Assembly: GCA_025937235.1 (NCBI GenBank)
Contig: JAICRU010000002.1
Span: 6,304-70,303 of the forward strand
DNA: 64,000 nt
Direction of reading: 5' to 3'
Origin: Acidimicrobiia bacterium
GTDB lineage: Bacteria; Actinomycetota; Acidimicrobiia; Spongiisociales; ZC4RG35
Shown here: positions 13,297 to 31,437 of the stretch, piece after piece
Numbering within the stretch: the first letter of the stretch is position 1
How the letters are laid out: each line of letters opens with the position of its first letter
Notes under the pieces: model-generated
The model's database searches: none
Told to the model about the DNA's origin: nothing
Seen by the model: only the letters and a program-made list of their open reading frames with translations
Translations under genes and position numbers: made by a program

Positions 13297-15333
13297 TCAG
13301 CCCGCCTCGGCCACCTCGCGTAGCTCGCGCCTGAGCTCGTTGACTTCGTCGCGGAGTCGCGCCGCGTATTCAAAACGGAGCTCCTTGGCAGCCTCATGCA
13401 TCTCGTCCTCGAGGCTCATGATGAGCCTGGTCAAGTCGTCACCCTCGAGGTCGATCGGCCGCCTCGGCTCGACCTCCCGTCTTCTTCTATCGCCCTTGGG
13501 AGCCTCGGTCTGAACCAATTCCAGGATGTCGGATACACGTTTTCTCACGGTCTGAGGGTCGATGCCGTGGTCCTCGTTCCAGCGAGTCTGAGCCCGTCGC
13601 CGGCGGTTGGTCTCGTTGATCGCCCGCTTCATGGAATCGGTCACGTCGTCGGCGTACATCACTACCTGACCATCGACGTTCCGGGCCGCCCTCCCGATGA
13701 TCTGGATCAGTGAGGTCTCGGACCGGAGAAATCCCTCCTTGTCGGCGTCGAGTATGGCCACCAGGGACACCTCGGGCAGGTCGAGGCCTTCCCGGAGCAA
13801 GTTGATGCCCACCAAGACGTCGAAATCGCCGAGACGGAGCTCGCGCATGATCTGCACTCGCTCCAGGGTGTCGATCTCGGAGTGCATGTACCTTGCCCTG
13901 ACCCCCATCTCGAGCAGATAGTCGGTCAGGTCCTCGGCCATCTTCTTGGTGAGAGTCGTGACCAGCACCCGCTGCTCCCGCAGGGCACGTTCCCGGATCT
14001 CATGGAGCAAGTCGTCGATCTGACCCTTGGTGGGACGGATCATCACTTCCGGGTCGACCAGACCGGTCGGGCGGATTATCTGCTCGACGACCTGAGTCGA
14101 GTGAGAGATCTCGAAGTCGGAAGGTGTGGCGGAGAGGAACACCACCTGGTTCGCCTTCTCCAACCATTCGTCGAAGCGGAGCGGCCGGTTGTCCTTCGCC
14201 GAGGGAAGTCTGAACCCATGCTCGACGAGGACTTCTTTCCGGGAATGATCTCCCTCGTATTGTCCGCCGATCTGAGGGACGGTGACATGGGACTCGTCGA
14301 CGATGGTCAGGTAGTTCTTGGGGAAGTAGTCGAGCAGGGTGTAGGGGGCCTCGCCTTCTGACCGCCCATCCAAATATCGAGAGTAGTTCTCGATGCCGGA
14401 GCAGAACCCGACTTCACGCATCATCTCCAGGTCGTAATTGGTGCGCATTCGAAGCCGTTGCGCTTCGAGCATCTTGCCCTTTCCCTCCAGTTCGGCGAGA
14501 CGCTGCACGAGCTCGATCTCGATGCCTGCTATTGCCTTCTTCATCCGCTCCCGCTCGGTCACATAGTGGGTGGCGGGGAAGACGAACAGCTCGGAAAGCT
14601 CGTCGACCACCTCTCCCGTGACCGGGTTGAGCCTGATTATCCGCTCTACCTCGTCTCCCCAGAACTGGATCCTGACGATGGTCTCCTCGTAGGAGGGGAA
14701 CACCTCGAGGGTGTCACCCCTGACCCGGAACTTGCCCCGGATCAGGTTGACCTCGTTGCGCTCGTACTGGATGTCGACAAGACGCTGTATGGCGTCCTTC
14801 ATCGGGTACTCCACCCCCTGGACGAGGCGGAGCAGCTGGCCCATGTACTGCTCGGGGGATCCGAGGCCATAGATGGCCGACACCGAAGCGACGATGATCA
14901 CGTCATCTCGCACCAGGAGACCGGCGGTGGCCGAGTGCCGGAGCCTGTCGATCTCGTCGTTGATCGTGGCGTCCTTCTCGATGTAGGTGTCGGTCTGAGG
15001 GATGTAGGCCTCGGGTTGGTAGTAGTCGTAGTAGGAGACGAAATACTCCACCCGGTTGGTGGGGAAGAGCTGACGGAACTCGTTGGCCAGTTGGGCGGCC
15101 AACGCCTTGTTGGGGGCGAGCACCAACGTCGGGCGTTGCACCTGTTCGATGGTCCAGGCGATTGTGGCCGATTTCCCGGAGCCGGTTATCCCCAGCAGAG
15201 TCTGGAAGCGGTCCCCCCGCTCGATCCCGGCGGCCAGGGCAGCAATGGCTTCGGGCTGGTCGCCGGCAGGGGCGAAGTCGGACACGATCTTGAACTCGGG
15301 CACCGAATGGAGGGTACCGGCAGGAGGTGACAA
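13297..15333 (-). CDS. uvrB: Excinuclease ABC subunit B
   Basis: 678 aa with helicase motifs (GITGSGKS), the beta-hairpin region and a C-terminal UvrC-interaction coiled coil. Confidence 0.95.
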
Positions 15334-15343
15334 GAACTGTCCG

Positions 15344-15943
15344 CTATTCAGGCCTTGTCAGATACCCAACCAGTCGGCGGACCGTCGCTTCCAGCCCTTC
15401 CAGGTCGCCGTGGTTGGGCACGACCAGGGCGGCTCCCGCCAGCCACCGTGCCCGGGAGGGCTGGGCGGCCATTCGCTCCCTGACCTCCGCCTCCAACATC
15501 CCCCGTTTCATCGCCCGTCGCACCCGGACGTCGTCCCGAGCATCGACCACGATGCGCGGCCAGCCCAGCCCTGGATCGACCAGGGGCATCTCCACCGCTG
15601 CCACTCCATCAAATCCCTCCAATTCGGCTTCGATTCGGCCGAATATCAACGGATGAGTGATCTCTTCCAGGGCTCGGAGCTCGTCAGGGTTGGCGAACAC
15701 GATCCGGGCGAGCGTCTTGCGGTCTATCTCGCCTTCGAAGACGACCCCCGGCCATCTGGCGGCGACCGGGGCCAGGGCTTCATCGGCCAAGACGGCGTGG
15801 CCAACGGCATCGGCGTCGATGGTGCGAAGGCCGTGCGTCGCCAATAGACGGCGCACCTCGCTCTTTCCCGAACCGATCCCACCCGTGATCAGCCAACGTC
15901 CATCCGGAGAACTCACCGCTGCCGACGGTAGCCTTCGGAGCAT
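15344..15943 (-). CDS. coaE: Dephospho-CoA kinase
   Basis: P-loop [14 protein letters not shown] and the rest of the CoaE fold. The conserved coaE-uvrB adjacency is kept (11-nt gap). Start is ambiguous between ATG 15943 and an in-frame GTG 33 nt downstream. The ORF-track start at 16063 is an artefactual extension. Confidence 0.75.
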
Positions 15944-17453
15944 GACGGTCGCCGTTCCGGCTCCGTGGGAATTCCGCCTCCATCGCAGCGTCACTATCGG
16001 GCAGTTCGTGGTGCTCATCCTGGCGGTGGTCATCGATCTGCTGGCGAGCGGAGGCCAGCCCAACCGTGACTCTCTGTTGGCGATCGCCGTCGCGACCTTC
16101 TATGTGCTGGGGAGCGCCGCCGTCCCCGAGAGCTGGTATCGGATTCGTTTCGGGGCGGAGGCGATCACTCTGGTCGGCGCCTTCCTCACCATCACCGCGG
16201 TCACCCTCACCGGTGGGGTGGCCAGCCCCTACATCCTGCTCTCGATGGGCCCATCCATCTTCGCCACCATCTACGGGGGGCTACGCACCGGGCTGACCAC
16301 CGGGCTTCTCTCGATTGCCCTTCTCACCTTGGTCAGCCTTGCCCAAGGACAGCCACTGACCGCAGCCCTGCCCGCCATGGGCCTGTACATCGCCTTCGTG
16401 CTGCTCGTCACCGTGATCCGCCGATTGCTCGAGGATGCCCATCGCCAGGCCGGAGAGCTGGCCGAGGCGACCGAATCCGCCACCCAGAAGCTGGAGAACC
16501 TCGAGGAGATCCACGGCGTGCTGCTCCGTCTCTCGGAAGACATCTCGGCCGGCCGTCTCAATGCGGTGGAAGTGGCTGCCGACACCCTCGAGGCGATCCT
16601 GGCCCGGAGCCCGGGCTCATCGGGGCGTCTGGTGCTGAACGAAGCAGAAGGGCCCGTGATTCTCGCCTCGCGGGGTGTCCCTCCTCCGGAGCCTCATCCC
16701 TACAAGGTTCCACTCTCCACCGTCGACAGCACGGTCGGCACCCTCGAGTTGCTCACGCCTGAACCTCTCTCCAAGCCCGACCTGATCGATATCGAAGCCT
16801 TCGTGCAGCCGGTCAGCATCGCGTTCGCCAACCTGCAGCTCCTCCAGAACATCGTCGGGTCGGCGGTGGCAGAGGAAAGGATCAGACTGGCCCGGGAGAT
16901 GCACGACGACATCGGACCTTCTCTCGCCTCCTTGGGTCTTGCCCTCGACATGGCCGCGATGCAGCAAGCCCATCACCCTGAGCTGTCGGCAGATCTGAAG
17001 GTGCTTCGCACCAATGTCACCAAGCTCGTCGAAGATGTGCGCGCCTCGGTGGCCGATCTCCGGATCGCTCCGGGGCCCACCCTGACGGCCAGGCTGCTCC
17101 AGTCCACGGCCGGGCTCGATGGCGGCCCCCAGGTCGTGGTGGACCTCGAGGAGCGACGACCGCCACGGCCGGCTGTCATCGCCGACCTGACCTCGATCAT
17201 CACCGAAGCGACCAGGAACGCTCACAACCATTCTGGGGGCTCTCAAATACTGGTCTCGGGTCGCATCGACCGCAGCCGCGGGGTCTGCTCAGTGATCGAC
17301 GATGGCGCCGGCTTCGATCCCACATATGAGCCGGACGGTCATTTCGGCCTCATAGGCATGCGGGAACGTGCCGAGAAGATAGGGGCGAAGATCAGTTTTC
17401 AACCGACACCCGGAGGAGGCACCACCGTGAGAGTTGAATGGGGTAACCGATGA
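15942..17453 (+). CDS. Sensor histidine kinase, NarL/LuxR-partner type (HisKA_3 + HATPase_c)
   Basis: Multi-TM N-terminus, a GAF-like middle region, an H-box (REMHDDIGPSLASL) and N/G-box ATPase motifs. Start is the internal ATG at 15942. The ORF-track start at 15657 runs antisense through coaE. The stop overlaps the response-regulator start as ATGA. Confidence 0.8.
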   Translation: MTVAVPAPWEFRLHRSVTIGQFVVLILAVVIDLLASGGQPNRDSLLAIAVATFYVLGSAAVPESWYRIRFGAEAITLVGAFLTITAVTLTGGVASPYILLSMGPSIFATIYGGLRTGLTTGLLSIALLTLVSLAQGQPLTAALPAMGLYIAFVLLVTVIRRLLEDAHRQAGELAEATESATQKLENLEEIHGVLLRLSEDISAGRLNAVEVAADTLEAILARSPGSSGRLVLNEAEGPVILASRGVPPPEPHPYKVPLSTVDSTVGTLELLTPEPLSKPDLIDIEAFVQPVSIAFANLQLLQNIVGSAVAEERIRLAREMHDDIGPSLASLGLALDMAAMQQAHHPELSADLKVLRTNVTKLVEDVRASVADLRIAPGPTLTARLLQSTAGLDGGPQVVVDLEERRPPRPAVIADLTSIITEATRNAHNHSGGSQILVSGRIDRSRGVCSVIDDGAGFDPTYEPDGHFGLIGMRERAEKIGAKISFQPTPGGGTTVRVEWGNR

Positions 17454-18088
17454 TTCGCGTCATGATCGCCGATGATCACCAGCTGTTCGCAGAGGGGTTG
17501 AGCCAGGCGCTGGACATCCTCCCCGACACCCGTGTCGTGGGTGTCGTGGAGTCCGGTCCGGCCCTCGAGGCGGCACTGGAGACCCAACCGGCCGAGGTGT
17601 CGATCGTGGACATCGAGATGCCCGGCGGTGACGGGATCGACACCATCTCCGGACTGGGACGGAGGACCAACGCCATCGTCGTGTCGATGCATGCCAACGA
17701 AGAGCAAAAGGAGCGCGCTTTCAGGGCCGGCGCCAAGGGCTTCTTCTCCAAGGGGGTGCCGCTCTTGACCCTGGCGGCCGCGGTGCGAGCGGTGGCGGAC
17801 GGTCAGGACCTGATATCGCTCGATGAGACAACTCGAGATGAGCTGCTCGAGCACTACGGGCAGGCCCGTCTCGATCCGGGTGCGGCCTCGCTCACCGAGC
17901 GAGAGAAGGAGATCCTGCAGCTGCTCGCCGTCGGTGTCTCTGCCACAGATGAGCTGGCTGACCGTCTCTACATCTCGCAGAAGACGGTCAAGAACCACCT
18001 CGCTTCCATCTTCCAGAAACTGGCCGTGAGCGACCGGACCCAGGCCGCCATCGAAGCAATCCGACTTGGGATAGCCCGGCCCAACTAG
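17450..18088 (+). CDS. NarL/LuxR-family response regulator (receiver + HTH)
   Basis: Receiver domain (MIRVMIADDHQLF...D...K) and a C-terminal LuxR HTH (LTEREKEILQLLAVGVSATDELADRLYISQKTVKNHL). Confidence 0.9.
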   Translation: MIRVMIADDHQLFAEGLSQALDILPDTRVVGVVESGPALEAALETQPAEVSIVDIEMPGGDGIDTISGLGRRTNAIVVSMHANEEQKERAFRAGAKGFFSKGVPLLTLAAAVRAVADGQDLISLDETTRDELLEHYGQARLDPGAASLTEREKEILQLLAVGVSATDELADRLYISQKTVKNHLASIFQKLAVSDRTQAAIEAIRLGIARPN

Positions 18089-18165
18089 TCACATGTTGCC
18101 AGGGTTATCGAAACGATTTTGGGCCTTGAGGCCCATCATCGAATTCCACGATAGGACTTACTCTG

Positions 18166-18366
18166 ATGCGGGTGAGCAAGGGAGTTGAAGTGTACGCCAG
18201 GGTTATTAGGTACCTCGGCGACGAGAAGGGTGCTTCTCTCGTCGAATACTCGCTCCTCGTGATCCTCATAGCCATCGCGGCCTTGACCGCCGTGGCTTAC
18301 TTCGGCGGTGAGCTGAGCAGCACATACTCAGACATCAATTCGAATCTGGTGGACGCGGGGCCGTAG
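18166..18366 (+). CDS. flp: Flp-family type IVb pilin (divergent paralogue 1)
   Basis: Flp prepilin motif G/ASLVEYSLLVILIAIAAL, read as the prepilin-peptidase cleavage site plus a hydrophobic helix. An alternative in-frame GTG start at 18190 has a better RBS (AAGGGAG) and gives a 16-aa leader. Confidence 0.7.
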   Translation: MRVSKGVEVYARVIRYLGDEKGASLVEYSLLVILIAIAALTAVAYFGGELSSTYSDINSNLVDAGP

Positions 18367-18376
18367 GGGATAGTTC

Positions 18377-18395
18377 CCGGGACCCATTGTCCCGG
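18377..18395 (+). terminator. Hairpin just downstream of flp-1
   Basis: CCGGGAC-ccatt-GTCCCGG, a 7-bp perfect stem starting 11 nt after the flp-1 stop. No U-tract follows. Confidence 0.3.
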
Positions 18396-18455
18396 TGGTA
18401 GGTAGGGCTACTTTGCCCGATTGCAAGCCAAGGCAACAACCCAAGGAGGGGTTCC

Positions 18456-18629
18456 ATGTTTGCTCTGTGGACTAAGTTCACCAGCTGGATTCAGGAGGAG
18501 AAGGGTGCCTCGATGGTTGAGTACGCCCTGCTCGTCGTCCTGATCGCCATCGTTGCTCTCGTCGCCGTGCAGCTCGCCGGCAATGAGGTCTCCTCGACCT
18601 TCAGCGAGATCGGTTCCGGCCTGGCGTAA
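18456..18629 (+). CDS. flp: Flp-family pilin (paralogue 2); 57 aa, below the ORF-track cut-off
   Basis: ATG 18456 preceded by AAGGAGGGG. Product is MFALWTKFTSWIQEEKGASMVEYALLVVLIAIVALVAVQLAGNEVSSTFSEIGSGLA. Found by manual translation. Confidence 0.75.
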   Translation: MFALWTKFTSWIQEEKGASMVEYALLVVLIAIVALVAVQLAGNEVSSTFSEIGSGLA

Positions 18630-18648
18630 GCGTCAGAGATTGAGTATG

Positions 18649-18682
18649 AGAGGGGGCTCGCACTTCGGTGCGGGCCCCCTCT
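18649..18682 (+). terminator. Strong stem-loop with UUCG tetraloop downstream of flp-2
   Basis: AGAGGGGGCuCGCAC-UUCG-GUGCGgGCCCCCUCU: a roughly 15-bp GC-rich stem capped by a UUCG tetraloop, 20 nt after the flp-2 stop. Confidence 0.45.
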
Positions 18683-18819
18683 CATGTGTGCGACTGCTGC
18701 CTGGAGCACAACGGGATCTGGTCGCGCCGGTCATTTTTCCGATATTCCGACTCAGGTTTTTGACCGAACGGGTCGATATATCGATGCAAGCCAATTTCGT
18801 TGACCCAAGGAGGGGCTTC

Positions 18820-18993
18820 ATGCTTGCTTTGTGGACCAAGGTAGTGAGCTGGGCGAAGGATGAGAAGGGTGCCTCGATGGTTGAGTACGCCCTGCTCGTT
18901 GTCCTGATCGCCATCGTCGCTCTCGTCGCCGTGCAGCTCGCCGGCAATGAGGTCTCCTCGACCTTCAGCGAGATCGGCTCCGGGCTCAGCTGA
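18820..18993 (+). CDS. flp: Flp-family pilin (paralogue 3), near-identical to paralogue 2
   Basis: ATG 18820 preceded by AAGGAGGGG. Product is MLALWTKVVSWAKDEKGASMVEYALLVVLIAIVALVAVQLAGNEVSSTFSEIGSGLS. The ORF track reported it only as the tail of a 146-aa TTG-started ORF. Confidence 0.75.
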   Translation: MLALWTKVVSWAKDEKGASMVEYALLVVLIAIVALVAVQLAGNEVSSTFSEIGSGLS

Positions 18994-19014
18994 GCAACGC
19001 TCAGATCCAACAGT

Positions 19015-19040
19015 GAAGGGACCTCTTCGGGGGTCCCTTC
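19015..19040 (+). terminator. Stem-loop with UUCG tetraloop downstream of flp-3
   Basis: GAAGGGACCuC-UUCG-GgGGUCCCUUC: an 11-bp stem with one G.U pair and a UUCG loop, 22 nt after the flp-3 stop. Confidence 0.4.
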
Positions 19041-19136
19041 TCCTTGGGGCCATAGGCCTAACGACTCATTGCCGCCATCCGAAGGGAATCGTACCTTTGT
19101 GTCCGTAGGACCGGTCGCAGATCAACGGGAGGCATC

Positions 19137-19301
19137 GTGTCACGGTTGTGGACCAGGCGGTTAAGCGAGGAAACGGGCGCCTCCATGGTGGAATACGCCT
19201 TGCTCGTGGTCCTCATCGCCATCATCGCCCTCCTCGCCATCAGGCTTGCCGGTACTCAGGTCTCCGAGGCCTTCAGCGAGATCGGCTCTGGTCTCCAGTG
19301 A
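19137..19301 (+). CDS. flp: Flp-family pilin (paralogue 4), GTG start
   Basis: GTG 19137 preceded by GGGAGG. Product is VSRLWTRRLSEETGASMVEYALLVVLIAIIALLAIRLAGTQVSEAFSEIGSGLQ. There is no upstream in-frame ATG before a TAA at 19059. Confidence 0.65.
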   Translation: MSRLWTRRLSEETGASMVEYALLVVLIAIIALLAIRLAGTQVSEAFSEIGSGLQ

Positions 19302-19307
19302 CCGAGT

Positions 19308-20654
19308 TCATGGTCTCAGAACGACGAAATCCTGGTCTTCGTATTCCTCCGACCAGCCGGTAGCCTCGAGCTCGTCGACCAGATCTTCGTCGGCCCTCAG
19401 GAGCACCTGTCCGATACCATCCCGCTCGAACACCGGCTCCCAGTCACGCTTCAGATCCCTGACCTCTACGTATTCGATCATCCGATCGCCATAGAGCTCG
19501 GCCCGATCGTCGATGTAGACCAATCGCTCCGGGCCCTCAGCCCAGATCAGATAGCCGCCTGCGCTGTCGTCGTGGAAGGTGGGCACATGGGCCAGCCACC
19601 CCGCGGCGGCGACCGGAAAGCGCTCCTCGTCGATCGACCCGTCGGAGATGATGAACCACGGTGTGACGAGCACAACGAGGCCAAAGACGGCTGCCGCGGG
19701 CGCAGAGAACCGTTTCCTGGCGCCGGCGGCCATGTCAGCGAGGGCGACACCCATCAGGGGCACAAGAGCGATCCACGCCGGCGGGACAGCCCGGGTCGCG
19801 GTCAAGGCAAGGAGCAGAAAGGGAACGAGGATGATCAGGTGACGAGGGGTGACTCGTTCTCGAACGGCGCCTATCACGATCAGGCCGATCCCGATCAGGA
19901 ACGGGGCGAAGACCACCGACAGGAGCTCAGGGCGTCTCCACTCGGAGAGAAGGGCCAGGGCAGGCCCGGCGTCGGAAAAATCGAGCAGGAACTCGAGAAC
20001 CCCCAACCCGTGCGCGGTGAGGAACGTGGCCAGCCCGGCGACGATCGCCGTCGGGAGCGACTTCCACTCCTTCTCGAGGAGGATGGTCAGACCCACATAG
20101 GCCAGCCCGATCACGAAGCTCCCATGAACGGAGGCCCAGATCCAGAAGAGAAAAGGGATGGTCCATCGGGTGACGGGTCGGTCCCACGCCACGACCACCA
20201 GAACGAAGAGGGCAAAGGAGAACAAGACCGGCCTGGGGACCAGGAAGGAGATCATCAGCAGCGTGGACAGGGCCACGATGATCGCCGTCGACCATTCGCT
20301 CCTCGACCGGCGGTAGGCGACCAGCCCGATCCCCAAGAATGTGATCGAGCTGAGCAGGAGCATCATCGGTGGCACGAAGCCGAGGCCCCAGTTGGACTCG
20401 CCCCAGGCATAGACGAGCTCGGCCAGCCAGCTCTGGGTCAGCCAGCGCTCCCCCAGCATGGTGAAGGAAAAGGGGTCGGCGGTGAGTACCTCTCCGGCGT
20501 TGGCCTGCAGCTCTCCTGCCCGGACATGCCACAGGAAAGAGTTGTCCCGGATCGGGGCCCAGGCATCGATCACCAAGGCCACAAACGGCACCAGGAGAGC
20601 CAGGTGCGCCAGAGAGAAGTGTCGCTGAGTCGGTCCCGGCGCCGCCAGCGCCAT
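19308..20654 (-). CDS. Uncharacterised polytopic membrane protein (about 10 TM plus a roughly 108-aa C-terminal soluble domain); last gene of the tad operon
   Basis: The start ATG overlaps the tadC stop as TGATG, so it is translationally coupled. There is a large first extracytoplasmic loop with conserved Asp residues and an acidic C-terminal domain. No A24 prepilin-peptidase motif (GGDVK) and no recognisable Tad family signature. Confidence 0.6.
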   Translation of the reverse strand: MALAAPGPTQRHFSLAHLALLVPFVALVIDAWAPIRDNSFLWHVRAGELQANAGEVLTADPFSFTMLGERWLTQSWLAELVYAWGESNWGLGFVPPMMLLLSSITFLGIGLVAYRRSRSEWSTAIIVALSTLLMISFLVPRPVLFSFALFVLVVVAWDRPVTRWTIPFLFWIWASVHGSFVIGLAYVGLTILLEKEWKSLPTAIVAGLATFLTAHGLGVLEFLLDFSDAGPALALLSEWRRPELLSVVFAPFLIGIGLIVIGAVRERVTPRHLIILVPFLLLALTATRAVPPAWIALVPLMGVALADMAAGARKRFSAPAAAVFGLVVLVTPWFIISDGSIDEERFPVAAAGWLAHVPTFHDDSAGGYLIWAEGPERLVYIDDRAELYGDRMIEYVEVRDLKRDWEPVFERDGIGQVLLRADEDLVDELEATGWSEEYEDQDFVVLRP

Positions 20655-21595
20655 CAGTTGTTGGCGAATGCGCCGCCGATCGAAATGGCGGCCGGGCCCA
20701 ACAACACGATGAAGAGGGCCGGGAAGATGCAGAACACCAGCGGGAAGACCAGCTTCACCGGCGCAGCGAACGCCTTCTCCTGGGCTCGCTGGCGACGCTT
20801 GACTCGCATCTCGTCGGCCTGCACCCGCAGCACCCGGGCGATCGTCACACCGAAGGCCTCGGCCTGGATCATGGCCAGGATGAAGGAGCGGAGCTCCTCG
20901 AGATCGGTGCGGTCCATCAGATGCCTCATGGCGTCGCGTCGGCTCACACCCACCCGGGTTTCTTGGAGCATCCGGAAGAACTCCTCCGAGAGCGGTCCAG
21001 GAACGGTGGCGACGACCCGTGACAGGGCGGCATCGAAACCGAGCCCGGCCTCGACCGAGATGACCAGCAGGTCGAGCACGTCGGGCAGGGCCCGCAGCAT
21101 TGTCTGACGCCGGTCATCGATCTTTCTTTGCAGCCATGCATCGGGACCGAAGAAGCCGAGCACGATCGGCATGCCGAATAGGAAGATCCGCTGCATGCTG
21201 TCACTGCCGAAGTCGGACAGGAAGAAAGCGGCGAACAGACCGGCCACCGTGGTCAGGAGCTTGATGACGATGAACGATGGGGCGTCGAGGTTGCCGGGGT
21301 TGCCCGCCAGCACCAGCTGATGCTGCTTCTTCTCCAGGTAACCCACCGGGGTGAACCGGCGCAGGAAACCAGAGAGCTTGAGCACCACGGGGCCGATCGT
21401 CCGTTGTGCCAGGGGCTTGGACAGCTCCTCGTCGCGGACCGAGCCGGAACTGGCCCGGCCGTAGACGGCGAGCCTGTTGTTCATGTCCTCCCGGGCCCTG
21501 GTGACACCGAGCCCGATCCAGACGATTACGAAGAAGACCAGAGCCGACACCGTGACCACGGCGAGCATCTGACCGTCGAGTGCTGTGATGTTCAT
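20654..21595 (-). CDS. tadC: Tad pilus assembly inner-membrane platform protein TadC (T2SS-F/GspF domain)
   Basis: 313 aa with a single GspF-type domain flanked by TM helices. Follows TadB and is coupled to it; the upstream stop overlaps this start as ATGA. Confidence 0.8.
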   Translation of the reverse strand: MNITALDGQMLAVVTVSALVFFVIVWIGLGVTRAREDMNNRLAVYGRASSGSVRDEELSKPLAQRTIGPVVLKLSGFLRRFTPVGYLEKKQHQLVLAGNPGNLDAPSFIVIKLLTTVAGLFAAFFLSDFGSDSMQRIFLFGMPIVLGFFGPDAWLQRKIDDRRQTMLRALPDVLDLLVISVEAGLGFDAALSRVVATVPGPLSEEFFRMLQETRVGVSRRDAMRHLMDRTDLEELRSFILAMIQAEAFGVTIARVLRVQADEMRVKRRQRAQEKAFAAPVKLVFPLVFCIFPALFIVLLGPAAISIGGAFANN

Positions 21596-21708
21596 ACTTC
21601 GATGTTCACGATCTTCCGGAGCCAGAAAATTCCACCGGCCATGAGGATGAGTCCTGCGACGATGGCGATCCGGCCCAACGTCGCGGCGAGCAGCGGCTGG
21701 AAGTATTA
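21592..21708 (-). other. In-frame continuation of the TadB domain after a TAA codon (final transmembrane helix of TadB)
   Basis: Immediately after the TAA at 21708..21706 the same frame reads YFQPLLAATLGRIAIVAGLILMAGGIFWLRKIVNIEV and ends with TGA overlapping the tadC ATG. This is the canonical TadB C-terminal helix. Confidence 0.6.
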
Positions 21709-23547
21709 ACGGTTGTTGAAGCAGAGGAAGGCACCCAAGGCGAATGGCAGAGAGCCGAGCACGATCGCCGAGATCCGGCCCTCGGCGGTGAGCGCCTTGA
21801 TCTCTCCCTTGAGCCGGTTGCGGGCCAGCATGGTGTCGGCCACCGTCTGCAGAACCTCGGCAAGGTTGCCCCCGACCTCACGCTGGATCTCGATTGCCAT
21901 CGTGGCCCACTCGAAGTCCTTCGAGTTCGTGCGTTCCACGATTCCCTGCAGCGCTTCTGGGACCGAGCGACCGAGTCGGGACTCGACGACGGCTCGGGAG
22001 AACTCCCGCGCTGTCGGATCCGGCGCTTCGGCAGCCACCGCTTCGATTGCCTGGAGCAGGGAGTAGCCGGCCCGGAGGGAGGTCGACAGCAGGGTGAGCG
22101 TGTCGGGCAGCTGCTTCTCGAACCTCTTCCGCTCTCGGTTGCCGGCCCACCTGACCAGGATCATGAACCCGAGGAGCATGATTCCGAAGGTGGCCAGGCC
22201 CCACAGCGGCGAGTTGAAGATGGCGACGAAGACACCGCCCACCGCGGCGAGCCCGATCATGGCCAGGATCGCCTCGCCGGGGGACATCGGCACGTTGGCC
22301 TGCTCCAGGGCGGCGTTCACTCCCGAGAGCATCCCGCGCCGGCGTACCTCTTCTTCGGCAGCCTGGCTGAAGCGGTTGATCAGAGGGATCCGCTGCAGAA
22401 GCGGCTTCTTTTCCTCCTCGCCCGTTCTGGACCGCCGCCCATAGGCCTGGAGCCGTTTGGCGAAGCGACCCCCTCCCTGCTCCTCTTCACGGCCGAAGAG
22501 GATGATGATGAAGAGGAAGGCGGTCAGACCGATCCCTGCCGCACCGATGAGGGCCAGGTTGGTGATGCTGAGGGGGGAGCTGCTCTCGACGACGCTTCCC
22601 GTCACAGGGACCGGGACGGTTGTCGTTGTCGGGGCCATCGTGGTGGTGGTCGCATACCCGCTCACTGGGAAGGCGACCGTCGAGGTCAGGCCGCCGGGGT
22701 AGGTGGCCGCGAACTCGGCTTCGCCGGGCGCGGCCACCGGGGAAACGAATCGGGCAACGAGGGTGTTGCTGATCTCACGGCTGATCTGGCCGTAGAGTCC
22801 GGAGAGCTGCGCCGGATCGGGAGTCGACAGGAACAGCCCGCCGCCCGCGGTGGCGAACGCCGACACCGCCTCGGGGTTGAAGTCGGGTGACTCCAGGGCC
22901 ACGCCGAACACACGGGCATCTCCGGCCTCGATCGCTGCGATCGCCGCGTCCGCCGTGGCGGCAGACGCGGTGTCCTCGCCGTCGCTGAGCACGATCATGT
23001 TGTTGAGCTGGGTCGGGGGAACGCCCTCGAACAGCGACATGCCGAGGATCACACCGTCGTTGAGGGCTGTCTCACCATCGGCGACGAGTGCATCGACCCG
23101 CTCGTGCAGCACCTCGGCATTGGTGGTGAACCCGGTCTGGACCACCGCGGTGTCGGCGAAGCTGACTATCGCGATCGAGTCCTCGGGGCGCTTCTGGTCG
23201 ATGAAGCTGTTGGCAGCCGTTTTGGCCGAGTCCATCGGCGCTCCGAGCATCGAGCCTGAGGTGTCGATCACCAGAACCACACCCACCGGGACGCTGGACT
23301 CGCCGAGCGGGGCCACCTCTAGATCCGAAACCGGTTGGCCGTCGACCGTGACCGCCAGCTGGGCCGGGTCCGGGGCCTCGGGAAGGTTCCGGAACTCGAC
23401 CACCATCTGGGTCTGGCCGCCTTCGGCATAGCGCGAGCCGTTGATATCCACGATCTCGATCTCGGGCGCAGTGGTCTGCGCGATCGCAGCGGTGCTCACC
23501 CCGAGCACGAGGGCGCCGACCAGGGCAGAGAGACGTCTCAAGCTCAT
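21706..23547 (-). CDS. tadB: Fusion protein: signal peptide, von Willebrand factor A domain, Thr/Pro-rich linker, TM, then a TadB (T2SS-F) platform domain. The TadB domain is truncated by an in-frame TAA.
   Basis: N-terminal signal peptide (LSALVGALVLGVSTAAIAQ). VWA MIDAS motif DxSxS (VIDTSGSM). Low-complexity TTTTMAPTTTTVPVPV linker, then a TM helix and a GspF-type domain. The start overlaps the tadA stop as ATGA. Confidence 0.7.
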   Translation of the reverse strand: MSLRRLSALVGALVLGVSTAAIAQTTAPEIEIVDINGSRYAEGGQTQMVVEFRNLPEAPDPAQLAVTVDGQPVSDLEVAPLGESSVPVGVVLVIDTSGSMLGAPMDSAKTAANSFIDQKRPEDSIAIVSFADTAVVQTGFTTNAEVLHERVDALVADGETALNDGVILGMSLFEGVPPTQLNNMIVLSDGEDTASAATADAAIAAIEAGDARVFGVALESPDFNPEAVSAFATAGGGLFLSTPDPAQLSGLYGQISREISNTLVARFVSPVAAPGEAEFAATYPGGLTSTVAFPVSGYATTTTMAPTTTTVPVPVTGSVVESSSPLSITNLALIGAAGIGLTAFLFIIILFGREEEQGGGRFAKRLQAYGRRSRTGEEEKKPLLQRIPLINRFSQAAEEEVRRRGMLSGVNAALEQANVPMSPGEAILAMIGLAAVGGVFVAIFNSPLWGLATFGIMLLGFMILVRWAGNRERKRFEKQLPDTLTLLSTSLRAGYSLLQAIEAVAAEAPDPTAREFSRAVVESRLGRSVPEALQGIVERTNSKDFEWATMAIEIQREVGGNLAEVLQTVADTMLARNRLKGEIKALTAEGRISAIVLGSLPFALGAFLCFNNR

Positions 23548-24902
23548 CGGCCCCTTGCGAATGGCTCGGGATCGAACAGGTCGGCGGGGAGCCGGATGCC
23601 CTGGTTCTCGAGATCTTGGGAGAAGGTCGGCCGGATCCCGGTCGCCTTCAAGCGGCCTTTGTAGACACCGTCCTCGTCGACCCCCATTCCGTAGTCGAAG
23701 AGGAAGATGTCCTGGAGGGTGATGATCTCCCCTTCCATGCCTTCGACCTCGGTGACATGAGTCACCCGGCGGGTGCCGTCCTTGAGACGGGACACGTGGA
23801 TGATCAGGTCGACTGCAGCCGCGATCTGCTCCCGGATGGCACGCACGGGGAGATCGAAGCCGGCCATCAGCACCATGGTCTCGATACGGGAAAGGGTGTC
23901 TCTCGGGCTGTTCGAGTGCACAGTCGTCAGGGAGCCGTCATGACCGGTGTTCATGGCCTGGAGCATGTCGAGGGCCTCGGCGCCTCGAACCTCACCGACC
24001 ACGATCCGGTCCGGACGCATACGCAGTGTGTTCCTGACCAGGTCACGGATGGTGACGGCGCCCTTGCCCTCGATGTTGGCCGGCCGTGACTCCAGCGTCA
24101 GGACGTGCTCCTGATGGAGCTGGAGCTCGGCGGCGTCTTCCACGGTCACGATTCGCTCGTCGCCGGGGATGTATGAGGACATCACGTTGAGGGTGGTGGT
24201 CTTACCGGAACCGGTACCGCCGGAGATCAGGACGTTGAGCCGGCCCCGGACACATGCTCTGGCGAAGTCGGCCACACGCTGGGTGATCGTGCCGAAGTTG
24301 ATCAGGTCCGCTTCCTGATAGGGATCCACCGCGAACTTTCGGATGGTTAGGAAAGGTCCGCCGATCGCCAGCGGGTGGATCACGGCATTGACACGAGACC
24401 CATCAGGGAGGCGGGCGTCCACCATCGGGGTCGCTTCGTCGACGCGACGACCGATCTGGCCGACGATCTTGTCGATGATGCGGCGGAGGTGGACCTCGTC
24501 GACGAACTTGACGTCGGACAGGACGATCTTGCCCCGCTTCTCGAAGTAGACGTCGTAGGGGCCGTTGGCCATGACTTCGGTCACGTCCGGGTCGTTGAGC
24601 AACGGGTCGATTGGCCCGTAGCCGAGCACATCCGAGGCGATCTCGTTGAGCAGGGCACGACGGTCGGCGGAGGTGAGGGGAAGACCCTGCTCCTGGTCGA
24701 CCGCCCATTCCAGCATCTCGAGGACGCGAAGACGGAGCTCGGCGTCCGACATCTGGCGGTCGTACAGGGTCGGGCCCAGCTCCTCGACCACCTTGAAGTG
24801 AAGACGTCCCCTGAGCTCGCTCAGGGCATCCGAGCGAGTGGAGCTGACCTCCTGGGTCTCTGTCTGCCTGGCGGCTGCGACTCTCTCTGAAAGCGATGGC
24901 AC
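23544..24902 (-). CDS. tadA: Tad pilus assembly ATPase TadA/CpaF (secretion NTPase family)
   Basis: Walker [16 protein letters not shown], Asp box, Walker B and His box ([14 protein letters not shown]), all typical of CpaF/TadA. Confidence 0.9.
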
Positions 24903-24918
24903 TGTTATTTACCTTCCA

Positions 24919-26103
24919 CTATTTGCGACCGAAGAGCCCGCCCCTGGACGTGCCTTCGGGAATCTTCCCGGCGATCAACTCGGCGACACTCTCGAAACCC
25001 TTGGCGATCTTCCCCCTGGGGTCTGTCTCGACGATGGGGCGTCCCTCGTTGACCGAGTTGGGGACGGCGGCATCGGAAGGGACCGAGGCCTTGATCTCCA
25101 TCTTGAGGGCGCTCTCGATCTCCTTGTTGTCCAGCTTCGCCTTCGAGTTGTTCCGATTCATGACGAGCTGGACGTTCTGGGTCGAGAACTTGAGCAGCCG
25201 CAGGGTCTCCAGGGCGAGCTTGGCGTTTTTGACCGAAGGGAGATCCATGTCCACCACCATGAGCACGTGGTCCGCCTTCTCGATGAGGGACAGGATCAAC
25301 TCGTCCAGCATCGAGGCCGTGTCGACCACGACGTAGTCGTAGCTCTCCTGGAGGATGTCGAGCATCTGCATCAGGCCTGCCGTGGTGATGTCGTCGGCGA
25401 AGGCCGGCTCGAGGGGAGCAGCCAGTACCTTCAGGCCGCTGGGGTGCTCCGTGAGCAGAGAGTCGAGCATCTCTCCATCCAGGTGATGGAGCTCATGGGC
25501 TGCGTTGACCATGGTGAACCTCGGCTCCAGTTGGAGGAGGAGGCAGACATCCCCGAACTGGAGGTCTGCGTCGACCAGCACCACTTTCTTGTCCGGGAAC
25601 CGGTTCAAGAGGAGGGCGACGTTGGTGGCGGTCACGGTCTTCCCGCTCCCGCCCTTGGCCGAGGTCACGGTCACGATCGCTCCCCGCTGCTCGGTGCGAA
25701 CGGGCTCGGCCGCCGGCTTGCCGGCGGTGCGCCGCTTCAGCACGTCGTGAGCGAACTGCTCGATCGCCGCCTCGATCTTCGACTCGTCGAGAGGGGCCTC
25801 GATGACATCGGAGACACCGGCTCGCATGGCACCACGGAGGAGATCGGCCGTGACCGTGTCGGCGACCATCATCAGGATCAGAGCCGGATCCTGGTTGTGC
25901 AGGTTCCGGATGTGCTCCAGCGACTCGTCGTTCGAGAACGAGGGGCCGAGCAGGAGCATCCTGAGGTCGCCTGACTCCGCGGTCTGACTCGCCTCCTCTA
26001 TGGAGCGAGCGACCGGGAGCCGGCCCTCGAAGAGCTCCTTGGCCGCGGAGACGAATTCATCGTCTTTGTCCACGACCAGCAGGTTGTGCTCAGCCATCGA
26101 CAT
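24919..26103 (-). CDS. tadZ: TadZ/CpaE: atypical receiver-like N-domain fused to a ParA/MinD-type ATPase
   Basis: Deviant Walker A (TSAKGGSGKTVTATNVA) and an N-terminal CheY-like ARD domain. Confidence 0.8.
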   Translation of the reverse strand: MSMAEHNLLVVDKDDEFVSAAKELFEGRLPVARSIEEASQTAESGDLRMLLLGPSFSNDESLEHIRNLHNQDPALILMMVADTVTADLLRGAMRAGVSDVIEAPLDESKIEAAIEQFAHDVLKRRTAGKPAAEPVRTEQRGAIVTVTSAKGGSGKTVTATNVALLLNRFPDKKVVLVDADLQFGDVCLLLQLEPRFTMVNAAHELHHLDGEMLDSLLTEHPSGLKVLAAPLEPAFADDITTAGLMQMLDILQESYDYVVVDTASMLDELILSLIEKADHVLMVVDMDLPSVKNAKLALETLRLLKFSTQNVQLVMNRNNSKAKLDNKEIESALKMEIKASVPSDAAVPNSVNEGRPIVETDPRGKIAKGFESVAELIAGKIPEGTSRGGLFGRK

Positions 26104-26116
26104 GGTCGAACCTCAA

Positions 26117-27040
26117 TCAGCTTCCAAATATGTCGTCCAGCAGATTCCCGCCGAACAGGTTGAGTGTGGTCACACCGGTGGTCTCCACCTCGACGAAGTC
26201 GCCGGGGACCAGGGTCAGCCAGATCGAGCCGTTCTCGGATGCGTAGGCAATCCGCTCGGCCTGCTCAGGTGTGACCTCGAGAGTGAACGTGGTGTCGTTA
26301 CCGGTGTCTTCCTCGACGGGCTCACCCTCGGGGGTGGTGTCGCCGGTCGTTGCCGGATCGGCCTCCACCGTGTCGGGGGCGTCCTGATCGGGCCTGATGT
26401 CACGCCCGGTGGCCATCACCGGCAGCCCCTGCAGAACGAAACGGGTGTAGGTCACCACCGCGATGGTCTCCTCGCTGGGAGGCTGGCCTTCGACCGGAGC
26501 AGCCGGCTGCTCGGCGATGCCGCTCAGCTCCTCGGGGAGCAGGTCCTCGGGGATGTCGATGGTGATGATCATATTGACCCTGTCGCCTGGCTCTACGAAC
26601 CCGTTGATGCCCCTGATGTTGTCGGTGGAGATGGTCATGGCCTGCTTGCCGGAGGGAATCTCCTCGGCGAGAGGGATCACGTCGACCGTGATGGAAGTCC
26701 ACTGTGACTCGGTCAGGATCGACCCGGCCGCGATCGGGCCCGCTGCGACGCGATCGGCGAGCACCTGGTTCAACTGCTCAGCGGAGGTGATGGCGCCGAC
26801 CGGCACATCCTCGGCCTGGTCTTCGCTCAGGGCGATCTGCGTCCCGCCGCTGTTGAAGTCCGAGAGGAGGATGGCCCCGTCCGTGCCCTCGGGGATGGCC
26901 TCCCCGGCGCGGTAGACCTCGACGATCTCCTGGCCTTCGGTTATCTCGTTCTCGACGTTCTGGAGATAGTTCCAGACAGCCCATGCGGCGAGCCCGGCCA
27001 GTATCAAGGCCACTAACAAGACGATGGCTCTCCTACCCAT
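26117..27040 (-). CDS. cpaB: Flp pilus assembly protein CpaB/RcpC (SAF + RcpC domains)
   Basis: N-terminal TM anchor (MGRRAIVLLVALILAGLAAWAV) followed by SAF and RcpC-like domains and an acidic Thr-rich tail. Start at ATG 27040 is preceded by GAAGGGGA. The ORF-track start at 27091 lacks an RBS. Confidence 0.75.
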   Translation of the reverse strand: MGRRAIVLLVALILAGLAAWAVWNYLQNVENEITEGQEIVEVYRAGEAIPEGTDGAILLSDFNSGGTQIALSEDQAEDVPVGAITSAEQLNQVLADRVAAGPIAAGSILTESQWTSITVDVIPLAEEIPSGKQAMTISTDNIRGINGFVEPGDRVNMIITIDIPEDLLPEELSGIAEQPAAPVEGQPPSEETIAVVTYTRFVLQGLPVMATGRDIRPDQDAPDTVEADPATTGDTTPEGEPVEEDTGNDTTFTLEVTPEQAERIAYASENGSIWLTLVPGDFVEVETTGVTTLNLFGGNLLDDIFGS

Positions 27041-27262
27041 TGAGTCCCCTTCGTATTTCCCCTGGGAAGGCGTTCCACCCGATGTCGGCACATGCCCGAC
27101 GACATGCTACCGATGGGCAGGCGCCATTCCGGTGCTTCGAGTCCGATTCCACAGGGATTGTTCGGACCGTATGAGACCAGTCTTGAGGGTTTCGCGGCAC
27201 ATTCCATAGTTCGGTCGCCCCATATGCGCGACGTCCGACGGCCGGCTGATCTCGGGTAGGTG

Positions 27263-27286
27263 TAAGTGACCCCTCGGTCACTTACG
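27263..27286 (-). terminator. Perfect 10-bp hairpin overlapping the rpsA stop codon
   Basis: GTAAGTGACC-cctc-GGTCACTTAC, a perfect inverted repeat. The rpsA TGA lies within the downstream arm. It separates rpsA from the tad promoter region. Confidence 0.45.
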
Positions 27287-28699
27287 ACCTATGCCGCGCT
27301 CCTTCAATTCCTGGAGGATTGCCTCGAGAGAGGCGTCGACCGGCATCGGCGGGCGCTCCTCCTCGGAAGGCCCGAACTCTCGCTCGAACTCCTTCTGAGG
27401 GCGACGCCGGCCCTTCTTCTGCTCCTCCATCTGGATCTCCCTCTCCCGCCAGTCGGGAGAAGCCTGCTTGATGGACAGCGAGATGCGACGCCGCTCATCT
27501 TCCTTCTCGGTGATCTTCACCTTTACCTGCTGCCCGATGGACAACTCGAGCTCGGGTGACTCGACCCGGTGTATCGCGATCTCCGAGACGTGCACCAGGC
27601 CCTCCACGCCGTCGGCCACTGAGACGAATGCTCCGAAGGGGACGGTCTTGGTCACGACGCCATCGATGACGTCGCCGACTTCGTGATCACGAGCGAACAC
27701 ATCCCATGGGTCGTCGCTGGTCTGACGGATCGACAACGAGATCCGCTCCCTCTCCCGGTCGACCTCGAGCACCTTGACGTTGACCTTGTCTCCGACCTTC
27801 ACCAGCTCACCGGGGTGGTTCACGTGTTGCCAGGAGAGCTCGGAGACGTGGACGAGGCCGTCCATGCCACCGAGGTCGACGAATGCCCCGAAATTGACCA
27901 CCGAGGAGACGACGCCCTCGCGAACCTCACCTTCGTGCAGGCCATCGAGGAAGGCGTTTCGTTCCTCTGCCTGGGCCTCCTCTAGATACGCACGGCGGGA
28001 GAGCACGACGTTGTTGCGAGCCCGGTCGAGCTCGATCACCTTGGCGGTTATCTCTTCGCCGATGAAGGGGTCGAGATCACGAACCCTGCGCATGTCGACA
28101 AGAGATGCGGGGAGGAAGCCACGGAGCCCGATGTCGACGATCAGACCGCCCTTGACGACTTCGATCACGGTGCCTTCGACCGTGCCGCCCTCTTTGGCGA
28201 CCTCCTGGATCTTGCCCCAGGCGCGTTCGTACATGGCGCGCTTCTTGGAGAGGATCAGCCTGCCCTCGTCGTCTTCTTTGTTCAGCACCACTGCTTCAAC
28301 CCGCTCCCCCACGCTGACTGCATCGGTGGGGTCCACGTTGTTGCGGATCGACAGTTCCCGGGTCGGGATCAGGCCCTCTGACTTGTAGCCGATGTCGATC
28401 ATCGCGCCGTCGGGATCCACGCTGACGACGGTGCCCTCCACGATGTCGCCCTCTTTGAACTCGAGAACGGTGGCCTCGATGGCGCGCTCGAAGTCGTCGG
28501 CGATGTCGTCGGGAAGATCAGTCAGATCGGGGGCAACCAGGGCCTCACGGCCCGAGACCTCTTCTTCTCCTGCATCTGGAGCCTGTGCCTGCTCCTCCAT
28601 CTCGACTGAGACGGGCGTCTCGGTCTCGACGGTCTCGGGCGCCGCCGGGCTCTCCGAGTCGAGAGCGCTTGCGGGCGCGTCTTGCGGGTTGCTGGTCAT
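27278..28699 (-). CDS. rpsA: 30S ribosomal protein S1
   Basis: Four or more S1 RNA-binding repeats (GxVxG...FGAFV, GLVHVSE). Conserved rpsA-polA adjacency. Confidence 0.95.
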   Translation of the reverse strand: MTSNPQDAPASALDSESPAAPETVETETPVSVEMEEQAQAPDAGEEEVSGREALVAPDLTDLPDDIADDFERAIEATVLEFKEGDIVEGTVVSVDPDGAMIDIGYKSEGLIPTRELSIRNNVDPTDAVSVGERVEAVVLNKEDDEGRLILSKKRAMYERAWGKIQEVAKEGGTVEGTVIEVVKGGLIVDIGLRGFLPASLVDMRRVRDLDPFIGEEITAKVIELDRARNNVVLSRRAYLEEAQAEERNAFLDGLHEGEVREGVVSSVVNFGAFVDLGGMDGLVHVSELSWQHVNHPGELVKVGDKVNVKVLEVDRERERISLSIRQTSDDPWDVFARDHEVGDVIDGVVTKTVPFGAFVSVADGVEGLVHVSEIAIHRVESPELELSIGQQVKVKITEKEDERRRISLSIKQASPDWREREIQMEEQKKGRRRPQKEFEREFGPSEEERPPMPVDASLEAILQELKERGIGRK

Positions 28700-28799
28700 A
28701 ACTGGGTGGTTGCCTCCGAAGGGGAAACTGCAGACGCTGGGGTCCGCAGCCTGAGCGAGTGTACGCAGTTCTGTGTGGAACTGCCAACGTGATAAATGG

Positions 28800-31412: not shown

Positions 31413-31437
31413 GAACTGACGGTAGTGGCCTTGCCGG

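What the first reader, a model, noticed from the sequence alone, without database searches (positions are those of the whole stretch)
21592..23547. TadB fused to an N-terminal secreted von Willebrand A domain
One reading frame encodes a signal peptide, a VWA domain with a MIDAS motif (DTSGSM), a Thr/Pro-rich linker, a TM helix, a cytoplasmic linker and then a GspF-type TadB domain. VWA domains in Tad systems normally reside in separate TadG/RcpC-like proteins. No TadE/F/G pseudopilin genes are present here. The fusion may provide that function or tether the platform to the cell wall or a ligand.
Basis: partly seen in the sequence, partly recalled or inferred. Interest (0 to 1): 0.7.

Follow-up and report, generated by a model that had tools for sequence, protein, structure and literature searches.

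The report
Pilus platform protein with outward adhesion-type domain

Summary
The described architecture is present on the minus strand. It comprises a signal peptide, a beta-rich segment, a VWA domain with an intact DTSGS MIDAS motif, a Thr/Pro linker, TM1, a cytoplasmic linker and a T2SSF (TadB) domain.

The frame 21592-23547 is not open. A TAA at 21706-21708 (codon 614) cuts off the last 37 codons, which include the last TM helix. It lies in a 56-bp patch holding 10 of the 26 substitutions against a 99.8 % identical MAG contig. All 10 are transversions, so I suspect an assembly artefact, but a recent nonsense mutation is not excluded.

The fusion is not rare. The 120 listed relatives are 66-100 % identical and carry VWA + T2SSF (119 of 120). 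Nearly all of the best 150 representatives at 50 % clustering align end to end. It occurs in species genomes of Acidimicrobiia (including cultured Actinospongicola halichondriae), Coriobacteriia, Egibacteraceae and Humimicrobiaceae. One clade in the same synteny has lost the module.

The fusion also co-occurs with TadE and TadG-like genes in other lineages, so it does not simply replace them. I found no paper describing it. It is a catalogued but unstudied variant of a known machine part. The function of the ectodomain is inferred only: a tethered MIDAS ligand-binding module at the pilus base.

The parts
21592..23547 (-). VWA-tadB, the full ancestral frame of 651 codons, interrupted by an in-frame TAA at codon 614
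23476..23547 (-). Sec-type signal peptide (residues 1-24, ...AIA|QT). A23 is at least 90 % conserved and Q24 is invariant in 113 relatives.
23287..23475 (-). N-terminal beta-rich segment of the ectodomain (residues 25-87)
   Evidence: AF2 model, strands 29-80
22768..23286 (-). VWA domain (residues 88-260). The MIDAS residues D95, S97, S99, T160 and D189 are invariant in 113 relatives.
23251..23265 (-). DTSGS, the DxSxS part of the MIDAS motif
22657..22767 (-). C-terminal beta-rich segment of the ectodomain (residues 261-297)
22567..22656 (-). Thr/Pro-rich linker, predicted disordered (residues 298-327)
22492..22566 (-). TM1 (residues 328-352), which corresponds to the N-terminal TM helix of unfused TadB
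22276..22491 (-). K/R-rich cytoplasmic linker (residues 353-424)
22138..22275 (-). TM2-TM3 hairpin (residues 425-470)
21724..22098 (-). T2SSF (GspF/TadB) domain (residues 484-608)
21706..21708 (-). In-frame TAA (codon 614). The 99.8 % identical contig L001 has GAC (Asp) here.
21667..21722 (-). 56-bp patch with 10 transversions against L001, covering the TM4-TM5 outer loop
21595..21705 (-). 37 conserved codons downstream of the TAA (outer loop and TM5), still in frame
20654..21595 (-). tadC (T2SSF paralogue). Its start overlaps the ancestral tadB stop as ATGA.
19308..20654 (-). 448-aa polytopic membrane protein, last gene of the operon, with a GT-C glycosyltransferase fold
23544..24902 (-). tadA/cpaF ATPase
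24919..26103 (-). tadZ/cpaE (receiver-like N-terminus plus ParA/MinD-type ATPase)
26117..27091 (-). cpaB/rcpC. The true start is probably internal, because the L001 orthologue is called at 300 aa.
18166..18366 (+). flp pilin 1 (G|ASLVEY)
18456..18629 (+). flp pilin 2
18820..18993 (+). flp pilin 3
19137..19301 (+). flp pilin 4

Best explanation
Shown:
- This is the tadB gene of a chromosomal Flp/Tad pilus operon of an Acidimicrobiia bacterium. The operon runs cpaB-tadZ-tadA-tadB-tadC-GT-C protein, with four convergent flp genes.
- In this lineage TadB carries an ancient N-terminal accretion: a cleavable signal peptide, a beta-rich plus VWA ectodomain with a fully conserved MIDAS site, and a disordered Thr/Pro linker joined to the N-out first TM helix of TadB.
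- This is the normal form of TadB across most Acidimicrobiia. It also occurs in Coriobacteriia, Egibacteraceae and Humimicrobiaceae, and it was lost once, in a clade that keeps the same synteny.

Inferred:
- TadB-TadC forms the membrane platform under the pilus base, as in other Tad systems.
- The fusion therefore displays VWA modules on the outer face of the membrane around the exit site, each on a tether of about 30 residues.
- There the MIDAS metal would bind an acidic group of a ligand at short range. The ligand could be a pilus-base or priming component, or a cell-wall polymer. This would hold or align the machine in a monoderm envelope that has no secretin.
- The module cannot ride to the pilus tip, so it is not a TadG/CpaL-type tip adhesin.

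The window's copy:
- It carries a premature TAA that would remove the outer loop and the last TM helix.
- The stop sits in a dense patch made only of transversions. I judge it more likely an assembly or consensus artefact than biology, with a recent nonsense mutation second.
For: - Domains: Pfam VWA and T2SSF lie in one ORF.
- Topology: hydropathy and charge bias fit N-out. The AF2 model shows a disordered 298-324 linker between the VWA module and the TM1 helix. The fold matches VWA proteins such as ArnB, 4fx5, ITIH1 and BatB, and the vWA minor pilin PilB of S. sanguinis.
- MIDAS: D95, S97, S99, T160 and D189 are invariant in 113 relatives. The ectodomain is 69-76 % identical on average, close to the membrane parts at 63-73 %, so it is under constraint.
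- Distribution: 119 of the 120 listed hits carry VWA + T2SSF (P0060, 603 aa, has VWA families only) and 113 are at least 640 aa. Almost all of the best 150 representatives at 50 % clustering align end to end. In species genomes, 54 of 74 scorable loci are fused, including Actinospongicola halichondriae NZ_CP171622.1. Egibacteraceae and Humimicrobiaceae members exist.
- Context: the synteny polA-rpsA-cpaB-tadZ-tadA-tadB-tadC-mem448-flp-RR-HK-coaE-uvrB is conserved.
- Loss: the 14 complete unfused TadBs form one clade nested among fused ones, and they begin just before TM1.
- Platform role: CpaG/CpaH (TadB/TadC) are modelled as a trimer of heterodimers at the pilus base in Caulobacter (PMC13170226).
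- Stop codon. These show 10 substitutions in 56 bp (Poisson P about 1e-16), 16 of 16 clustered substitutions being transversions against 3 of 10 scattered ones (Fisher P = 2e-4), and a downstream frame that is intact.
Against: - No experiment or complex model links the VWA module to any ligand.
- The relative domain positions in the AF2 model are uncertain (pTM 0.42).
- A whole clade does without the module, so it is accessory.
- The mature Flp tails do not differ between fused and unfused lineages, which gives no support for Flp as the ligand.
- If the TAA is real, this copy may be non-functional.
Confidence: 0.55

Rival explanations
1. The fused VWA domain replaces the TadG/CpaL-type VWA minor pilin (and TadE/F), acting as the adhesin or priming factor of a minimal Tad system.
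For: - No TadE/F/G-type prepilin motif was found in the 64-kb window, and the operon has no room for one.
- In other actinobacterial loci that carry the fusion, the TadG-like proteins match only Tad_N/Tad_C (one also TIG) and no VWA family. This is compatible with the VWA function having moved to TadB.
Against: - TadE and TadG-like genes co-occur with the fusion in L054, L067, L068 and L075.
- The domain is anchored to a polytopic platform protein and has no pilin-like N-terminus. It gives no PF13400 or PF07811 match, so it cannot enter the fibre.
- The unfused clade has no compensating VWA gene in the locus.
- Minor pilin genes could lie elsewhere in the genome, which was not testable here.
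Confidence: 0.12
2. The window's tadB is a real, recently inactivated pseudogene or truncated allele. The TAA and the surrounding patch would be true population variants, for example from selection on an exposed loop.
For: - The TAA is in the sequence.
- The near-identical contig L001 also carries unique changes at near-invariant sites in the same patch: W609L, N612T and D/E621Y.
- The L001 contig ends 250 bp beyond the tadB stop codon, about 330-380 bp past the patch, which is consistent with strain heterogeneity there.
Against: - The rest of the gene is identical in protein to P0001, and the 37 codons after the stop are intact.
- All 10 changes are transversions, unlike the scattered substitutions.
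- A second patch made only of transversions, at 31940-32175, also creates a stop in the window relative to L001. This looks technical.
Confidence: 0.3
3. The VWA part and the TadB part are separate genes joined by a sequencing frameshift, or the fusion is a one-off assembly chimera.
For: A few long-read MAG loci show the gene split in two (L023, L039, L043).
Against: - In the window the junction (linker and TM1) lies in one uninterrupted frame.
- More than 100 independent orthologues have the same length and order.
- The split loci also have many other genes fragmented, which points to sequencing errors.
Confidence: 0.01
4. The TAA is read through or recoded, and the variable patch is made by a diversity-generating retroelement.
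For: The frame continues in a conserved form after the TAA, and the variation is confined to the 3' end of the gene.
Against: - TAA ends one flp gene at the expected length.
- There is no second copy of the patch, that is, no template repeat, in the window.
- The substitutions show no adenine-specific pattern.
Confidence: 0.02

Closest known systems
TadB / CpaG, the inner-membrane platform protein of Tad (type IVc) pili, Pfam T2SSF PF00482
   Same: - It has a single T2SSF domain.
- A TadC paralogue lies next to it.
- The operon holds tadA, tadZ, cpaB and flp.
- The helix layout matches unfused TadB from TM1 onward.
   Different: It carries an extra 327-residue N-terminal part made of a signal peptide, a beta-rich plus VWA ectodomain and a Thr/Pro linker. 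Canonical TadB/CpaG proteins are about 300-350 aa and lack this.
TadG (Aggregatibacter) / CpaL (Caulobacter), a minor-pilin-like protein fused to a vWA domain with MIDAS
   Same: It is a VWA domain with a complete MIDAS motif, dedicated to a Tad pilus machine and exposed outside the cytoplasmic membrane.
   Different: - CpaL/TadG has a pilin-like N-terminal module and is proposed to sit at the pilus tip (PMC12607857, PMC13170226).
- Here the carrier is the platform protein.
- There is no Tad_N/TadE match.
- The domain stays tethered to the membrane.
PilB of Streptococcus sanguinis (PDB 7b7p), a modular type IV pilin with a vWA module
   Same: The VWA fold is shared (Foldseek E = 1.3e-8), in a monoderm type IV filament system.
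   Different: PilB is a pilin incorporated in the fibre. Sequence identity is only 13 %.
BatA/BatB-type membrane-anchored VWA proteins (PDB 3ibs, 4jdu)
   Same: - Both are extracytoplasmic VWA domains held at the membrane by TM helices.
- These are the closest sequence relatives of the ectodomain outside the fusion family, at about 30 % identity and about 300 aa.
- The fold match has TM-score about 0.69 normalised to the target.
   Different: They have no link to a pilus machine. The NCBIfam BatA score is 22.6 bits against a cut-off of 380.

Membership tests
TadB / T2SSF platform protein | T2SSF (PF00482) domain above the Pfam gathering score | tested here: met
   73.5 bits against a cut-off of 25.2, residues 484-608
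TadB / T2SSF platform protein | Encoded next to a TadC paralogue and a TadA ATPase in an flp operon | tested here: met
   tadA lies upstream and tadC downstream, both with ATGA overlaps. Four flp genes are present, two above and one just below the Flp_Fap cut-off, and the fourth recognised by sequence.
TadB / T2SSF platform protein | Intact reading frame through the last TM helix | tested here: not met
   In-frame TAA at 21706-21708. All relatives read through with D, E, S, G or T.
TadB / T2SSF platform protein | Required for pilus assembly and interacts with TadA/TadC | not testable with these tools
   Needs genetics or biochemistry
VWA domain with MIDAS | VWA family match above the cut-off | tested here: met
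   VWA_2 57.9 bits against 27, and VWA 46.4 bits against 23.8. Foldseek hits to VWA structures reach E = 1e-11.
VWA domain with MIDAS | DxSxS...T...D metal-site residues present and conserved | tested here: met
   D95, S97, S99, T160 and D189 are invariant in 113 sequences
VWA domain with MIDAS | Binds a divalent cation and a ligand carboxylate | not testable with these tools
   Needs biochemistry or a structure
TadG / CpaL (VWA minor pilin) | N-terminal pilin-like Tad_N/TadE segment with a prepilin-peptidase site | tested here: not met
   No PF13400 or PF07811 match. The N-terminus is a Sec-type signal with AxA|Q. No G/xxxxE motif lies in this ORF.
Diversity-generating retroelement target | A variable region paired with a nearby template repeat and adenine-specific substitutions | tested here: not met
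   No second copy of the patch in the window, and the substitutions are not adenine-linked
GT-C glycosyltransferase (for the neighbouring 448-aa gene) | Polytopic GT-C fold with a conserved acidic residue in the first outer loop | tested here: inconclusive
   The fold matches STT3, DPY19, ArnT and AftA (E from 1.7e-5 to 1.7e-2, TMq 0.40-0.56). D30 and D37 are invariant. There is no family HMM match, and activity is untested.

The most novel reading that the evidence does not exclude
The VWA modules on the platform form a MIDAS-bearing collar on the outer face of the membrane. This collar would grip the pilus base or the priming complex. Monoderm Tad machines would then have a built-in, secretin-independent alignment or force-sensing element that couples tension on the fibre directly to TadB and the motor. 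The operon's GT-C enzyme might glycosylate the Thr-rich tether or the Flp tail. Separately, the dense and partly nonsense variation in the TM4-TM5 outer loop could be real selection on an exposed surface, for example a phage receptor.
Probability: 0.12. Interest if true: 0.6.

Novelty: new variant of a known kind. Interest (0 to 1): 0.33.

Why it matters
Tad pili of monoderm bacteria lack the secretin and most of the envelope-spanning parts known from Caulobacter or Aggregatibacter. How the fibre is aligned, anchored and primed in these cells is little studied.

A conserved, outward-facing MIDAS domain built into the platform protein, present across several actinobacterial classes, is a concrete and mutable candidate for that role. 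At least one cultured carrier exists. The GT-C gene conserved in the same operon suggests that glycosylation is also part of the system.

For this window itself the result is mostly ordinary. It holds one member of a large, automatically annotated family, and that member is probably affected by a local sequence defect.

Tried and rejected
- **DGR or repeat origin of the variable patch.** I found no second copy in the window and no adenine pattern.
- **Stop-codon recoding.** TAA is used as a normal stop by an flp gene.
- **Covariation between Flp tails and the VWA module.** The tails are alike in fused and unfused lineages, so this was uninformative.
- **Frameshift or two-gene reading.** Rejected.
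- **Literature.** Five full-text searches were run: TadB + von Willebrand; Tad pilus / VWA / Actinobacteria; Acidimicrobiia + Tad + pilus; T2SSF + VWA; and TadB + vWA. None found a description of the fusion. Subscription journals are not covered.
- **AFDB fold search.** The library was unavailable.
- **Family HMMs for the 448-aa gene.** None matched. Only the fold search was informative.
- **ORF at the second SNP patch.** Pfam found nothing.
- **Prepilin peptidase.** None was found among the window ORFs I scanned. The 180-aa membrane protein at 50215-50757 is signal peptidase II.
Full report
**Observation**

The region lies on the minus strand. The mechanical ORF is 21706..23547 (613 aa, ATG start overlapping the stop of the upstream ATPase gene as ATGA). 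Pfam places VWA_2/VWA at residues 90-252 and T2SSF at 484-608, all well above the curated cut-offs. DTSGS is at 23251-23265 and the Thr/Pro stretch YATTTTMAPTTTTVPVPVTGS at 22567-22656.

Hydropathy gives a signal-type segment (6-24, ending AIA|QT) and five TM segments (333-351, 426-444, 447-465, 592-610, 619-637). The ectodomain is acidic (9 K/R against 38 D/E) and the loop after TM1 is K/R-rich. This fits the order: N-out ectodomain, TM1, cytoplasm, TM2-3 hairpin, cytoplasmic T2SSF domain, TM4, outer loop, TM5.

The interval 21592-23547 is not an open frame. Codon 614 is TAA (21706-21708). The same frame then continues through 37 conserved codons (YFQPLLAATLGRIAIVAGLILMAGGIFWLRKIVNIEV) to the TGA at 21592-21594, which overlaps the tadC start. 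All relatives are about 650 aa and have D (72), E (28), S, G or T at this position.

A MAG contig (L001, GCA_025937995.1) is 99.78 % identical over 12.2 kb and encodes the uninterrupted 651-aa protein. Of the 26 substitutions between the two, 10 fall in 56 bp (21667-21722; Poisson P about 1e-16). Six more fall in a second patch (31940-32175). All 16 clustered changes are transversions, whereas 7 of the 10 scattered ones are transitions (Fisher P = 2e-4). The second patch also creates a stop in the window relative to L001.

In the tadB patch both assemblies carry unique residues at near-invariant sites. The window has W609C, D614*, L616F and D/E621A. L001 has W609L, N612T and D/E621Y. The L001 contig ends 250 bp beyond the tadB stop codon.

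There is no repeat copy of the patch and no adenine-linked pattern, so a DGR is excluded. TAA works as a stop for one flp gene.

My reading is an inference from the known bias of low-quality short-read tails toward transversions. The patch is most likely a consensus defect at a place where strain variation breaks the assembly. A recent nonsense allele is the second possibility. This cannot be settled without reads.

**How common is the fusion**

- A search of the 5.8-billion-protein collection returned 955 hits. Of the 120 listed (66-100 % identity), 119 carry VWA + T2SSF; P0060 (603 aa) has VWA families only. 113 of them are at least 640 aa. Sources name them 'type II secretion system F family protein', 'tight adherence protein B' or 'VWA domain-containing protein'.
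- Against 1.84 billion representatives at 50 % identity, almost all of the best 150 are 620-690 aa and align end to end, still at E = 5e-76 at rank 150. Four are about 890-900 aa, and the two I scanned (P0246, P0249) carry two VWA domains.
- In one-genome-per-species contigs, 54 of 74 scorable loci have the fused gene. These include Microthrixaceae and Iamiaceae MAGs, the cultured Actinospongicola halichondriae Hal317 chromosome and Coriobacteriia MAGs.
- Cluster look-ups add Egibacteraceae and Candidatus Humimicrobiaceae.

Five full-text literature searches found no description of the architecture.

**Context and evolution**

The window operon is cpaB (26117-27091), tadZ (24919-26103), tadA (23544-24902), VWA-tadB, tadC (20654-21595) and a 448-aa membrane protein (19308-20654). 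Four convergent flp genes follow, and then a LuxR-type response regulator and a histidine kinase.

The whole block sits between rpsA and coaE. The order polA-rpsA-[tad]-flp-RR-HK-coaE-uvrB is conserved in dozens of species.

Fourteen species have a complete, unfused TadB of 321-351 aa in exactly this synteny, with no separate VWA gene in the locus. In a neighbour-joining tree of the TadB cores they form a single clade nested among fused forms, so one loss is the simplest history. Their proteins begin 10-25 residues before TM1. This fits an N-out first helix onto which an exported domain could be added.

**Constraint and fold**

The five MIDAS residues (D95, S97, S99, T160, D189) are invariant in 113 sequences. 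The beta-rich and VWA parts are 69-76 % identical on average. The TM segments are 63-73 % identical and the cytoplasmic T2SSF part is 89 %.

The AlphaFold2 model (pLDDT 71, pTM 0.42) shows beta strands on both sides of the VWA fold, a disordered 298-324 linker and a long TM1 helix. Foldseek against the PDB finds VWA proteins, some with flanking beta domains: ArnB 8s05, 4fx5 and ITIH1. It also finds BatB and, at E = 1.3e-8, the vWA minor pilin PilB of S. sanguinis.

**Mechanism**

It is shown that the protein is a TadB with an exported, tethered and constrained MIDAS domain. The rest is inferred.

In Caulobacter, TadB/TadC (CpaG/CpaH) are modelled as a trimer of heterodimers forming the cone under the pilus base (PMC13170226). 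If that holds here, several VWA modules would sit around the exit site on tethers of about 30 residues. They could bind an acidic group of a pilus-base or priming component, or of a wall polymer.

The module has no pilin-like segment, so it cannot act as a TadG/CpaL-type tip protein (PMC12607857). The idea that it replaces TadE/F/G is weakened because TadE and TadG-like genes sit in the same operon as the fused gene in L054, L067, L068 and L075.

Those TadG-like proteins do lack a VWA domain, so a transfer of the VWA function from TadG to TadB is not excluded. Flp tails do not differ between fused and unfused lineages.

**Side finding**

The 448-aa last gene of the operon has no family match and is 'hypothetical' everywhere. 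Its model (pLDDT 76, pTM 0.77) matches GT-C glycosyltransferases: STT3, DPY19, ArnT and AftA. It has invariant acidic residues in the first loop. It is a candidate glycosyltransferase for the Ser/Thr-rich Flp tail or for the Thr-rich tether.

**Verdict**

- The fusion is a widespread, automatically annotated but apparently undescribed variant of the Tad platform protein.
- Interest is modest (0.33).

Noticed in passing
window 19308-20654 (-): The last gene of the tad operon is a 448-aa polytopic 'hypothetical protein' with no Pfam or NCBIfam match. It is conserved in synteny with both fused and unfused TadB. Its AF2 model matches GT-C glycosyltransferases (STT3, DPY19, ArnT, AftA), and D30 and D37 in the first loop are invariant. 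It is a candidate pilin or linker glycosyltransferase.
   Followed up: yes
window 31940-32175 (+ strand ORF fragment just upstream of tRNA-Leu(CAA) at 32048-32134): This is a second patch of 6 substitutions against contig L001, all transversions. One turns ...GPKCGPV... into ...GPKC*PV.... A 1-bp indel at 32548 also lies nearby. The patch has the same character as the one in tadB, which suggests local sequence-quality problems in one or both assemblies.
   Followed up: partly
window 18166-19301 (+): Four tandem flp pilin genes (G|ASxVEY) lie convergent to the tad operon. Copies 2 and 3 are nearly identical. A LuxR-type response regulator (17450-18088) and a histidine kinase (15657-17453) sit next to them and are conserved across the class.
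   Followed up: partly
window 13297-31604 and loci L002-L082: The tad/flp/two-component block is inserted in the housekeeping neighbourhood polA-rpsA ... coaE-uvrB. It keeps this position in dozens of Acidimicrobiia species, so it is a stable chromosomal system and not a mobile island.
   Followed up: partly
L052, L056, L060-L062, L064, L065, L069, L070, L074, L076, L078, L080, L082: One clade has an unfused TadB of 321-351 aa in the same synteny, with no VWA gene in the locus. It is nested among fused forms in an NJ tree, which implies a single loss of the module.
   Followed up: yes
P0246, P0249 (about 895 aa); P0254 and P0272 are of similar length: Variants with two tandem VWA domains in front of TadB exist. 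P0246 is from an Egibacteraceae MAG.
   Followed up: partly
L054:2521-4637, L067:2949-4699, L068:2523-4477, L075:2292-4480: Outside Acidimicrobiia, operons with fused VWA-TadB also encode TadE and large TadG-like proteins upstream of cpaB. These match Tad_N and Tad_C, and one also matches TIG. None of the TadG-like proteins matches a VWA family.
   Followed up: partly
L048, L050, L055, L059 (downstream of the histidine kinase, opposite strand): A second tadA-tadB-tadC cluster with an unfused TadB-like gene lies next to the first one in Microthrixaceae, Actinospongicola and related genomes.
   Followed up: no
L023, L039, L042, L043: Long-read MAG loci show VWA-tadB split into two ORFs, but many neighbouring genes are fragmented too. 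The splits are therefore probably sequencing frameshifts.
   Followed up: no
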